A DNA stretch of 64,000 nucleotides from Escherichia coli (GTDB lineage Bacteria; Pseudomonadota; Gammaproteobacteria; Enterobacterales; Enterobacteriaceae), in NCBI RefSeq assembly GCF_022846255.1, contig NZ_AP025682.1; one strand, 5' to 3'. Shown in pieces: positions 12,001-15,000 of the stretch. How positions within the stretch are numbered: position 1 is the stretch's first letter; every line of letters begins with the position of its first letter. Position numbers: made by a program.

Positions 12001-15000
12001 TATGCCCAAAATCTGGAGAAAGCTCGCTATGGATATTCCCGTTAATGCAGCAAAGCCGGGGCGTCGGCGTTATCTGACGCTGGTGATGATCTTTATTACG
12101 GTGGTCATTTGTTATGTTGACCGCGCTAACCTGGCCGTGGCTTCCGCCCATATTCAGGAAGAGTTCGGTATTACCAAAGCGCAAATGGGCTATGTATTTT
12201 CGGCCTTCGCCTGGCTTTATACGCTATGTCAGATCCCCGGCGGTTGGTTTTTAGATCGCGTAGGTTCACGCGTGACTTATTTTATTGCGATATTTGGCTG
12301 GTCAGTGGCGACTTTATTCCAGGGCTTTGCCACGGGCTTAATGTCATTAATTGGTCTGCGCGCGATAACCGGTATTTTCGAAGCGCCCGCGTTCCCGACC
12401 AATAACCGGATGGTAACCAGTTGGTTCCCGGAACATGAACGTGCTTCTGCCGTTGGTTTTTATACGTCTGGTCAGTTTGTCGGTCTGGCGTTTCTGACTC
12501 CGCTGCTGATCTGGATTCAGGAGATGTTGAGCTGGCACTGGGTGTTCATTGTCACCGGTGGTATCGGCATTATCTGGTCGCTGATTTGGTTTAAGGTTTA
12601 TCAGCCGCCGCGTCTGACCAAAGGCATCAGCAAAGCTGAACTGGATTACATTCGTGATGGCGGCGGTCTGGTGGATGGCGATGCGCCGGTGAAAAAAGAG
12701 GCGCGTCAGCCGTTAACAGCCAAAGACTGGAAACTGGTGTTCCATCGTAAACTGATCGGTGTCTATCTTGGGCAATTTGCGGTGGCTTCTACACTGTGGT
12801 TTTTCTTAACCTGGTTCCCGAACTATTTAACCCAGGAAAAAGGAATCACGGCGCTGAAAGCAGGTTTTATGACCACGGTGCCATTCCTCGCGGCGTTTAT
12901 TGGCGTCCTGCTCTCTGGCTGGGTCGCGGATCTGCTGGTACGTAAGGGCTTTTCACTGGGCTTTGCGCGTAAAACGCCGATTATCTGCGGCTTGCTGATC
13001 TCCACCTGCATTATGGGTGCGAACTACACCAACGATCCGATGATGATTATGTGCCTGATGGCGCTGGCATTCTTCGGCAACGGTTTTGCTTCGATAACCT
13101 GGTCGCTGGTCTCTTCTCTGGCACCGATGCGCCTGATTGGTTTAACCGGCGGCGTGTTTAACTTTGCCGGTGGTCTGGGCGGCATCACTGTTCCGCTGGT
13201 GGTGGGGTACCTGGCGCAGGGTTACGGTTTCGCACCTGCACTGGTTTATATCTCCGCCGTCGCGTTGATTGGCGCGCTCTCTTACATCCTGCTGGTGGGC
13301 GATGTGAAGCGCGTTGGATAATCTTTCAACTGTGGAATATGCGCCACTCCACTGCGCATAATCCACTTTCTTAAAGCCGGTGCGGTCAGGCATCGGCTTT
13401 TTACTATCTTGCCGAAGAGTTTTAAACGCAGTTTGCGAGTGGCGCGCCTGTAAGCGGTATTGAGCTTCTCTGGCTGCTTCAGTAATACCGAACGCAGAAT
13501 CTCTGCGCTATCCAGCGCATAGCTAATCCCCTCCAGCGAGCTGGCGCTGATAAATCCCGCCGCTTCGCCAATCAGAAAGGCGTTGTCCTTGCCGCAGACA
13601 AAATCCTGCCAGCGTGAGGGAAACAGCACCGTGCATTTTTCGCTTTTCACCGCCTTACCAAACTGGAACTGAAAGGCACTCATTTTCTCTTTCAGCGCCG
13701 TGAAACGCGTCTGACCGTCTTTCATCGGATAGGCACCGCCAAAGATAAAATAACCGTCTTTGCTGATACTCCATGAGTAACAGTCAGTTATCGCATTATC
13801 AAAGATGCAGGAGTAGAACGGCACCGGATGTTTCTCTGCGAACCACTGCTGGATGGCGACATATTTACGAATCTGATGATCCGGGTAGAGATGTCGCCGC
13901 ACCATCGAGTTGGCACCATCGGCACCGACCAGATAGCGGGCGGTAATATGCTGCTCCCAGCCGTCTGCGCGAAAAATGACATGCCATTTATCATCCTCAC
14001 GCCAGATTTTTCGACACAGGCTGTCGTGGTAAACCTCAACGCTGGCGGGGATCAGCGATTTCATCCACAAGTCGAAAGCATGGCGATTAATATTGATATA
14101 GCTTCGCTGGTAGTTACGCGTGAGCGATGCGGCGACGTCGACGGTTTTGACGCTGAAAATCTGCGGGTTGGCGATGACATCGACAGGAAGCGTCAGTCCA
14201 TCGCGAATAAAAGATCGCTGCGCGTCCGGTGCCAGCAGACCGCCACAAGGTTTGCTGAAACCTTCAGTACCATGCTGGTGCTTTTTATCCAGCGCGATCA
14301 CCTGCATTTTGCCTGCTAACTTTCGCGCCAACGCCGACCCTGCCGGGCCGAGGCCAATAATCGCCACGTCGAAATGTTCCATCTTTTCACTCACATTCAT
14401 CACGATGGCAAAAGACTATTGTCTGAAAGTGAAGTCCTTGTGAAGTATGATGGCGGGAACCGTTTTGTATCAGGACCGCGCCATGAAACAGATAACCTTT
14501 GCTCCCCGTAATCACCTGCTCACCAATACCAATACCTGGACGCCCGACAGCCAGTGGCTGGTGTTTGACGTGCGGCCTTCTGGGGCGTCGTTTACCGGCG
14601 AGACCATTGAGCGTGTGAATATCCATACCGGCGAGGTCGAGGTTATCTATCGCGCGTCACAGGGCGCATACGTCGGCGTGGTGACCGTTCATCCGAAGTC
14701 AGAGAAGTATGTCTTCATCCACGGCCCGGAAAATCCTGATGAAACATGGTATTACGACTTTCATCATCGGCGCGGAGTGATTGTTGAAAGCGGCAAGGTG
14801 AGCAATCTCGATGCAATGGATATTACCGCGTCATATACGCCAGGAGCGCTACGTGGCGGCAGCCATGTACATGTCTTTAGCCCGAACGGTGAAAGGGTGA
14901 GCTTTACCTACAACGACCATGTAATGCATGAACTCGATCCGGCGCTGGATTTGCGAAACGTCGGTGTTGCTGCACCGTTTGGCCCGGTCAACGTACAAAA

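What the first reader, a model, noticed from the sequence alone, without database searches (positions are those of the whole stretch)
13282..13321. Convergent 40 bp coding overlap between dgoT and cbrA
The dgoT ORF ends at 13321 on the plus strand and the cbrA reading frame on the minus strand does not stop until 13282. Either the two genes truly share 40 bp of 3-prime coding sequence, or cbrA in this strain has a C-terminal extension of about 12 codons (ending ...[16 protein letters not shown]) relative to the length I recall.
Basis: partly seen in the sequence, partly recalled or inferred. Interest (0 to 1): 0.25.

Follow-up and report, generated by a model that had tools for sequence, protein, structure and literature searches.

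The report
One-base stop-codon polymorphism lengthens cbrA
The 40-base overlap between the converging genes dgoT and cbrA is real, but it comes from a common, already annotated single-base variant of E. coli that turns the K-12 cbrA stop codon into a tyrosine codon and adds a 12-residue, probably floppy, tail.

Summary
dgoT (+) ends at 13321 and cbrA (-) runs to a TAA at 13282-13284, so the two genes share 40 bp. K-12 cbrA has 354 codons and overlaps dgoT by 4 bp; here it has 366.

The only cause is window base 13318, A here and C in K-12. It is the third base of dgoT Gly445 (GGA/GGC, silent) and, by complement, the third base of cbrA codon 355 (TAT Tyr versus TAG stop).

Among 5,426 complete E. 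coli genomes, about 1,305 carry A and at least 3,750 carry C. RefSeq annotates the 366-aa protein, and this exact protein is on at least 1,000 contigs.

E. albertii, E. fergusonii and E. marmotae also have the ...[13 protein letters not shown] tail. K-12 therefore more likely gained a stop than this strain lost one, though the polarity is not proven.

The tail lies outside the CbrA family profile, is predicted disordered, and sits where family C-termini vary freely. A 12-codon run-on is what chance predicts.

This is ordinary and already known, so interest is low. One side observation: a strong terminator-like hairpin for the dgo operon lies inside cbrA at 13373-13402.

The parts
11984..13321 (+). 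dgoT, the D-galactonate MFS transporter (445 aa as PGAP calls it; stop TAA at 13319-13321)
   Evidence: ORF list. PGAP annotation in near-identical genomes. TIGR00893 D-galactonate transporter scores 495 bits against a cutoff of 395.
13282..14382 (-). cbrA, the colicin M resistance lipid reductase, long allele (366 aa; ATG at 14382, stop TAA at 13282-13284)
   Evidence: PGAP gives a 1101-bp cbrA in K56-43-un. NF008519 equivalog scores 685 bits against a cutoff of 303 and covers residues 1-354. The exact protein is on at least 1000 contigs.
13282..13321 (.). 40-bp convergent coding overlap. It encodes DgoT residues ...[12 protein letters not shown] on the + strand and CbrA residues 355-366 ([12 protein letters not shown]) on the - strand. 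Third codon positions of the two frames coincide.
13318..13318 (.). The deciding polymorphic base: A here, C in K-12. In dgoT it gives GGA versus GGC (Gly445, silent). In cbrA codon 355 it gives TAT (Tyr) versus TAG (stop).
   Evidence: Alignment A1 and translations. Allele counts among 5426 genomes: A 1305, C 3443 plus 307 of the O157 type, G 4 (not this locus), T 1.
13373..13402 (+). Terminator-like hairpin with a U-run (AAAGCCGGUGC-GGUCAG-GCAUCGGCUUU, then UUU). It lies 52 nt downstream of the dgoT stop, inside cbrA codons ~328-338. It is the probable intrinsic terminator of the dgo operon, so the two transcripts would overlap by more than the 40 coding bases.
   Evidence: Folding gives dG -18.4 kcal/mol and z -5.0, with 0 of 200 shuffles as stable. 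My own scan also found it. The opposite strand folds more weakly (-13.5) and has no U-run. In Escherichia sp. E1V33 the stem is kept while the loop has 3 substitutions. Its function is inferred, not shown.

Best explanation
This is a natural stop-codon polymorphism at the 3' end of cbrA. In all Escherichia with this locus, cbrA converges on the 3' end of dgoT or on a remnant of it. Base 13318 is the third position of the last sense codon of dgoT (Gly445) and, on the other strand, the third position of cbrA codon 355. With C (K-12, phylogroup A/B1-type strains, O157) cbrA reads TAG and ends at 354 aa, overlapping dgoT by 4 bp. With A (this window, ST131-type and other strains) it reads TAT. Translation then continues 12 codons through the antisense of the DgoT C-terminus, to the first antisense stop, which is created by the dgoT Ser-Tyr codons TCT-TAC. 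That gives 366 aa and a 40-bp overlap. The change is silent in dgoT, so nothing in dgoT opposes either allele. The added tail, [12 protein letters not shown], is most likely a disordered and functionally neutral appendage on an otherwise intact FAD-dependent lipid reductase. What is shown: the SNP, the two reading frames, the allele frequencies, and the presence of the long form in other species. What is inferred: that the tail is translated and neutral, and that the long form is ancestral.
For: A single-base difference is the only change at the stop (alignment; translations). PGAP annotates cbrA as 1101 bp in A-allele genomes and as 1065 bp in C-allele genomes. Allele counts are A 1305, C 3443, O157-type C 307, G 4 (plasmid paralogue) and T 1, so this is not a sequencing error. 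The exact 366-aa protein is on at least 1000 contigs and is named CbrA by NCBI and UniRef. The same tail occurs in the E. albertii type strain and in proteins of E. fergusonii, E. marmotae and E. albertii. The family profile NF008519 ends at residue 354. C-terminal tails of CbrA homologues range from about 2 to more than 40 residues with no conservation after ...AHIPQ. The AlphaFold2 model has pLDDT below 50 and coil for residues 353-366, against a mean of 83 for the whole protein. The median antisense stop spacing of 15 codons makes a 12-codon run-on expected.
Against: There is no direct evidence here, proteomic or from ribosome profiling, that the tail is made. Neutrality is not tested. The tail is identical at 39 of 39 nt between this window and E. 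albertii, where dgoT is only a remnant, against 93% identity overall. That could hint at constraint, but about 2.6 differences are expected and P(0) is about 0.07, so it is not significant. Polarity is ambiguous because Escherichia sp. E1V33 has TAG and the cbrA tree mixes the alleles.
Confidence: 0.9

Rival explanations
1. The extension is functional. The 12-residue tail changes CbrA stability, membrane association or activity, so the TAT/TAG polymorphism tunes colicin M resistance between E. coli lineages.
For: Both alleles are at high frequency and persist across species. The tail sequence is unchanged in E. albertii, although dgoT there is a dead remnant.
Against: The tail is predicted disordered and lies outside the family profile. 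Tails in the family are freely variable in length and sequence. In most strains, conservation of the tail sequence is explained by the DgoT coding constraint on the other strand. The E. albertii identity is not statistically significant.
Confidence: 0.07
2. The overlap is an artefact, either a sequencing or assembly error at 13318 or a wrongly called reading frame.
For: None found.
Against: The same base is present in about 1305 independent complete genomes and in other Escherichia species. Both ORFs match curated family models above their cutoffs. PGAP annotates the same coordinates.
Confidence: 0.01
3. The coding overlap is selected as a regulatory device. Translation of cbrA into the dgoT 3' end, or convergent transcription, couples the expression of the two genes in an excludon-like way, and the long allele strengthens that coupling.
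For: There is no intergenic space. A terminator-like hairpin for the dgo transcript lies inside cbrA. The cbrA-dgoT pair is listed among convergent excludons found from RNA-seq coverage in E. coli (PMC12288877).
Against: The transcript overlap would exist with either allele, because the hairpin is identical in K-12. The SNP only moves the stop by 36 nt. No evidence here shows that ribosome occupancy of those 36 nt matters. The O157, E. albertii and E1V33 lineages have lost dgoT altogether.
Confidence: 0.03

Closest known systems
E. coli K-12 cbrA (yidS, b3690), 354 aa, colicin M resistance lipid reductase
   Same: It is the same gene at the same locus (dgoD-dgoT / cbrA / yidR), about 97% identical in DNA. 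It has the same FAD-binding geranylgeranyl-reductase-like core and also converges on and overlaps dgoT. Its reported function is saturation of the alpha-isoprene unit of C55-P-linked precursors, which blocks colicin M cleavage (review PMC8469651).
   Different: K-12 stops at TAG after Asp354 and has a 4-bp overlap. The window reads TAT and continues 12 codons, giving a 40-bp overlap. This is due to one base, 13318.
RefSeq 366-aa CbrA proteins (e.g. WP_021522291.1 in K56-43-un, WP_001338669.1, and the E. fergusonii, E. marmotae and E. albertii 366-aa forms)
   Same: They have the same length and the same ...[16 protein letters not shown] tail. The window protein is an exact match to a sequence found on at least 1000 contigs.
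   Different: Nothing material. The window is simply a member of this allele class.
Convergent overlapping gene pairs and excludons in bacteria
   Same: The 3' ends of two opposed transcription units overlap. The cbrA-dgoT pair is itself listed as a convergent excludon from RNA-seq coverage (PMC12288877).
   Different: Excludons are defined at transcript level. No mutually exclusive expression of dgoT and cbrA was tested here, and the SNP changes only the coding overlap, not the transcript overlap.

Membership tests
CbrA (NCBIfam NF008519 / PRK11445, equivalog) | Whole-protein score above the curated cutoff with full-length coverage of the profile | tested here: met
   The score is 685.5 bits against a cutoff of 303. 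Residues 1-354 align to profile positions 1-354 of 355, and the 12-residue tail lies outside the profile.
CbrA (orthologue of K-12 cbrA) | Same genomic position (dgoT / cbrA / yidR) and near-identity to K-12 cbrA | tested here: met
   Synteny and about 97% DNA identity over dgoT and cbrA.
Geranylgeranyl reductase family (TIGR02032) | Score above the curated subfamily cutoff | tested here: not met
   The score is 117 bits (E 1e-33) against a cutoff of 158.8. It is homologous but below the curated threshold, which fits CbrA being a separate branch. No close solved structure was found by sequence.
CbrA function (saturation of the alpha-isoprene of C55-P; colicin M resistance) | Enzymatic activity or resistance phenotype of this 366-aa allele | not testable with these tools
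   The function is known only from the literature on the K-12 354-aa protein (review PMC8469651). The primary papers are not held.
DgoT, D-galactonate transporter (TIGR00893) | Score above the curated cutoff, and position in the dgo operon after dgoD | tested here: met
   The score is 495 bits against a cutoff of 395. dgoD lies immediately upstream.
Stop-codon polymorphism giving a C-terminal extension | Alleles differ only by a substitution in the stop codon, and the next in-frame stop defines the longer product | tested here: met
   TAG versus TAT at 13318-13320 (-), with the next stop TAA at 13282-13284.
Stop-codon polymorphism giving a C-terminal extension | Direction of change (stop loss here versus stop gain in K-12) | tested here: inconclusive
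   E. albertii, E. fergusonii and E. marmotae carry TAT. Escherichia sp. E1V33 carries TAG, and the alleles are interspersed on the cbrA tree.
Convergent excludon | Overlapping antisense transcripts with mutually exclusive expression | not testable with these tools
   There is only indirect support: a terminator-like hairpin for dgo inside cbrA and a literature listing of cbrA-dgoT.

The most novel reading that the evidence does not exclude
The 12-residue tail is not neutral. The TAT/TAG switch would then be silent in dgoT and maintained at high frequency in several Escherichia species. It would act as a balanced polymorphism that modulates CbrA abundance or membrane targeting, and hence colicin M susceptibility, in lineages such as ST131.
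Probability: 0.05. Interest if true: 0.3.

Novelty: already known. Interest (0 to 1): 0.07.

Why it matters
It matters little. It is a useful annotation caveat: K-12 is not the reference length for CbrA across Escherichia, and the 366-aa form with a 40-bp convergent overlap is a legitimate, widespread allele rather than an error. It is also a tidy example of how an antisense overlap whose third codon positions coincide lets one base be silent in one gene and decide the stop of the other. Only if the tail altered colicin M resistance would it have biological weight.

Tried and rejected
1. Sequencing error or misframe. This was rejected by about 1305 genomes with the same base, by the PGAP annotation and by the family-model scores.

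2. An indel or rearrangement as the cause. This was rejected because the alignment with K-12 is gapless and only one base differs at the stop.

3. The simple promoter/terminator scan. It found only a weak, chance-level hairpin at 13300-13316 and missed the stronger one at 13373-13400, which I found by my own scan and by folding.

4. The primary CbrA papers (PMC3430330, PMC7648152). They are not held, so nothing could be checked about C-terminal requirements.

5. The sequence search of solved structures. It gave no close CbrA structure, only a distant flavin monooxygenase at E 8e-5, so no fold search was run.

6. Polarity from a 12-taxon NJ tree of cbrA. It did not resolve because the alleles are interspersed.

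7. The genome contigs pattern scan. It returned only 7 species and did not include E. coli, E. fergusonii or E. marmotae representatives. Their states came instead from the protein cluster members.

Full report
**Observation.** The sequence and the mechanical ORF list show a + strand ORF at 11984..13321. This is DgoT, ending ...[13 protein letters not shown] with stop TAA at 13319-13321. They also show a - strand ORF that runs down to 13282. This is CbrA, ending ...[16 protein letters not shown] with stop TAA at 13282-13284. Both ORFs are real genes:
- CbrA scores 685 bits against the NCBIfam equivalog NF008519 (cutoff 303).
- DgoT scores 495 bits against TIGR00893 (cutoff 395).
- The family-consistent cbrA start is the ATG at 14382 (MEHFDV..., 366 aa), not the upstream GTG that the ORF lister uses.

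**Comparison with K-12.** A megablast of 12900-13800 against 5,426 complete E. coli genomes finds the locus in 5,421 of them without gaps.
- In the closest genome (K56-43-un, 99.9% identity), PGAP annotates cbrA as 1101 bp overlapping dgoT by 40 bp.
- In a K-12 MG1655-derived genome, cbrA is 1065 bp (354 aa) and overlaps dgoT by 4 bp.

The alignment and translations show one cause, window base 13318, which is A here and C in K-12. On the + strand this is GGA versus GGC, the last sense codon of dgoT (Gly445), and is silent. On the - strand it is the third base of cbrA codon 355, TAT (Tyr) versus TAG (stop). After the K-12 stop, the same downstream frame ([11 protein letters not shown]) is open to the same TAA. 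The K-12 and window proteins therefore differ in length by exactly 12 residues.

**How common it is.** I used 33-base queries placed so that every 28-base megablast seed word contains base 13318. This counts alleles across the 5,426 genomes:

| Allele at 13318 | Genomes | Note |
|---|---|---|
| A | 1,305 | Includes O25b:H4-ST131 |
| C | 3,443 | K-12 type |
| C, O157-type flank | 307 | Differs at 13309 |
| G | 4 | All on a plasmid-borne or second-copy MFS paralogue, not this locus |
| T | 1 | An MG1655 derivative; TAA stop |

About 370 genomes are unassigned, because of other SNPs in the 33-mer or a missing locus. A few A-allele hits (H68-H70) are also paralogue matches. The exact 366-aa protein of the window is in the public collection on at least 1,000 contigs under the name CbrA. 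The long allele is thus a common and already annotated variant.

**Which form is older.** A degenerate DNA pattern scan of one genome per species and the cluster members give the following:
- The same ...[13 protein letters not shown] tail occurs in the E. albertii type strain and in E. fergusonii and E. marmotae proteins.
- A more distant 85%-identical homologue reads through the same antisense sequence (...[14 protein letters not shown]).
- Escherichia sp. E1V33 has TAG.
- In a 12-sequence NJ tree of cbrA the two alleles are interspersed.

I conclude that the long form is probably ancestral in Escherichia and that TAG is a derived premature stop. Recombination or recurrent mutation blurs the picture, so polarity is not proven. 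Beyond Escherichia, CbrA homologues end 2 to more than 40 residues after the conserved ...AHIPQ, with no conservation.

**What the tail is likely to be.**
- The family profile ends at residue 354.
- An AlphaFold2 model built on a 27-sequence alignment has mean pLDDT 83. Residues 353-366 are below 50 and are coil.
- The tail sequence is dictated by the antisense of the DgoT C-terminus. Third codon positions of the two frames coincide.
- In this phase, an antisense stop needs a dgoT codon ending in T or C followed by a Tyr codon, or one ending in T followed by a His or Gln codon. The first such site upstream is TCT-TAC (Ser-Tyr), hence the stop at 13282.
- Stops in this frame occur every 21 codons on average across dgoT, with a median gap of 15. 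A 12-codon run-on is therefore what chance gives.

The most likely reading is a neutral, disordered appendage. No experiment here tests that.

**Context and function.** According to a review (PMC8469651), CbrA is related to geranylgeranyl reductases. When overproduced, it saturates the alpha-isoprene unit of C55-P-linked peptidoglycan precursors, which prevents cleavage by colicin M. That work used the K-12 354-aa protein. The primary papers are not held.

**Side observations.**
1. The + strand carries a strong hairpin at 13373-13400 followed by a U-run. Its dG is -18.4 kcal/mol and z is -5.0, and no shuffle folded as well. It lies 52 nt past the dgoT stop and inside cbrA codons ~328-338. On the cbrA strand it is weaker and lacks a U-run. 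It is identical in K-12. In E1V33 the stem is intact while the loop carries three substitutions that are synonymous in cbrA. It is probably the dgo operon terminator. If so, the dgo and cbrA transcripts overlap by about 120 nt whichever allele is present. This fits the listing of cbrA-dgoT among convergent excludons (PMC12288877).
2. In O157:H7 (307 genomes), the E. albertii type strain and E1V33, the dgo operon is absent. A roughly 110-bp 3' remnant of dgoT remains next to cbrA, between yidX and cbrA.

**Verdict.** The mechanism is a one-base stop-codon polymorphism that is silent in the overlapping gene. It is already known and annotated, and of low interest.

Noticed in passing
window 13373-13402 (+): There is a strong terminator-like hairpin followed by a U-run (dG -18.4, z -5.0). 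It lies 52 nt downstream of the dgoT stop, embedded in cbrA codons ~328-338. The simple terminator scan missed it. The stem is conserved while the loop is changed in Escherichia sp. E1V33. It is probably the dgo operon terminator, which would imply about 120 nt of antisense transcript overlap with cbrA.
   Followed up: partly
window ~13208-13321; L010 2993-3106; L003 ~1531-1640; L007 ~10550-10660: In O157:H7 (307 complete genomes), the E. albertii type strain and Escherichia sp. E1V33, the whole dgo operon is missing between yidX and cbrA. A roughly 110-bp 3' remnant of dgoT is retained. O157 and E1V33 share one junction sequence, and E. albertii has a slightly different one.
   Followed up: partly
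window 13285-14382 (cbrA) compared with L002, L010-L016: cbrA differs by 3-4% in DNA between E. coli lineages. The TAT and TAG alleles are interspersed on the gene tree, which suggests recombination or recurrent mutation at this locus.
   Followed up: partly
window 11984 versus 12029 (dgoT start): PGAP calls dgoT from the ATG at 11984 (445 aa). A second in-frame ATG at 12029 (MDIPVNAAK...) would give 430 aa, the length I recall for K-12 DgoT. The TIGR00893 profile starts only at residue 38, so it does not decide between them.
   Followed up: no
window 14382 versus 14403 (cbrA start): The mechanical ORF starts at GTG 14403 (373 aa), and some records use MNVSEK... (372 aa). All family members align from MEHFDV, which supports the ATG at 14382.
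   Followed up: partly
hits H101-H105 and H68-H70: A dgoT-like MFS transporter gene with a near-identical 3' end (31 of 33 bases) occurs on large plasmids and at second chromosomal sites in a few E. coli, without cbrA next to it. This looks like a mobile paralogue of dgoT.
   Followed up: no
NZ_CP025268.1 3872354-3872386: One K-12 MG1655-derived record has T at the polymorphic base. cbrA there stops with TAA instead of TAG, and dgoT has GGT, still Gly.
   Followed up: no
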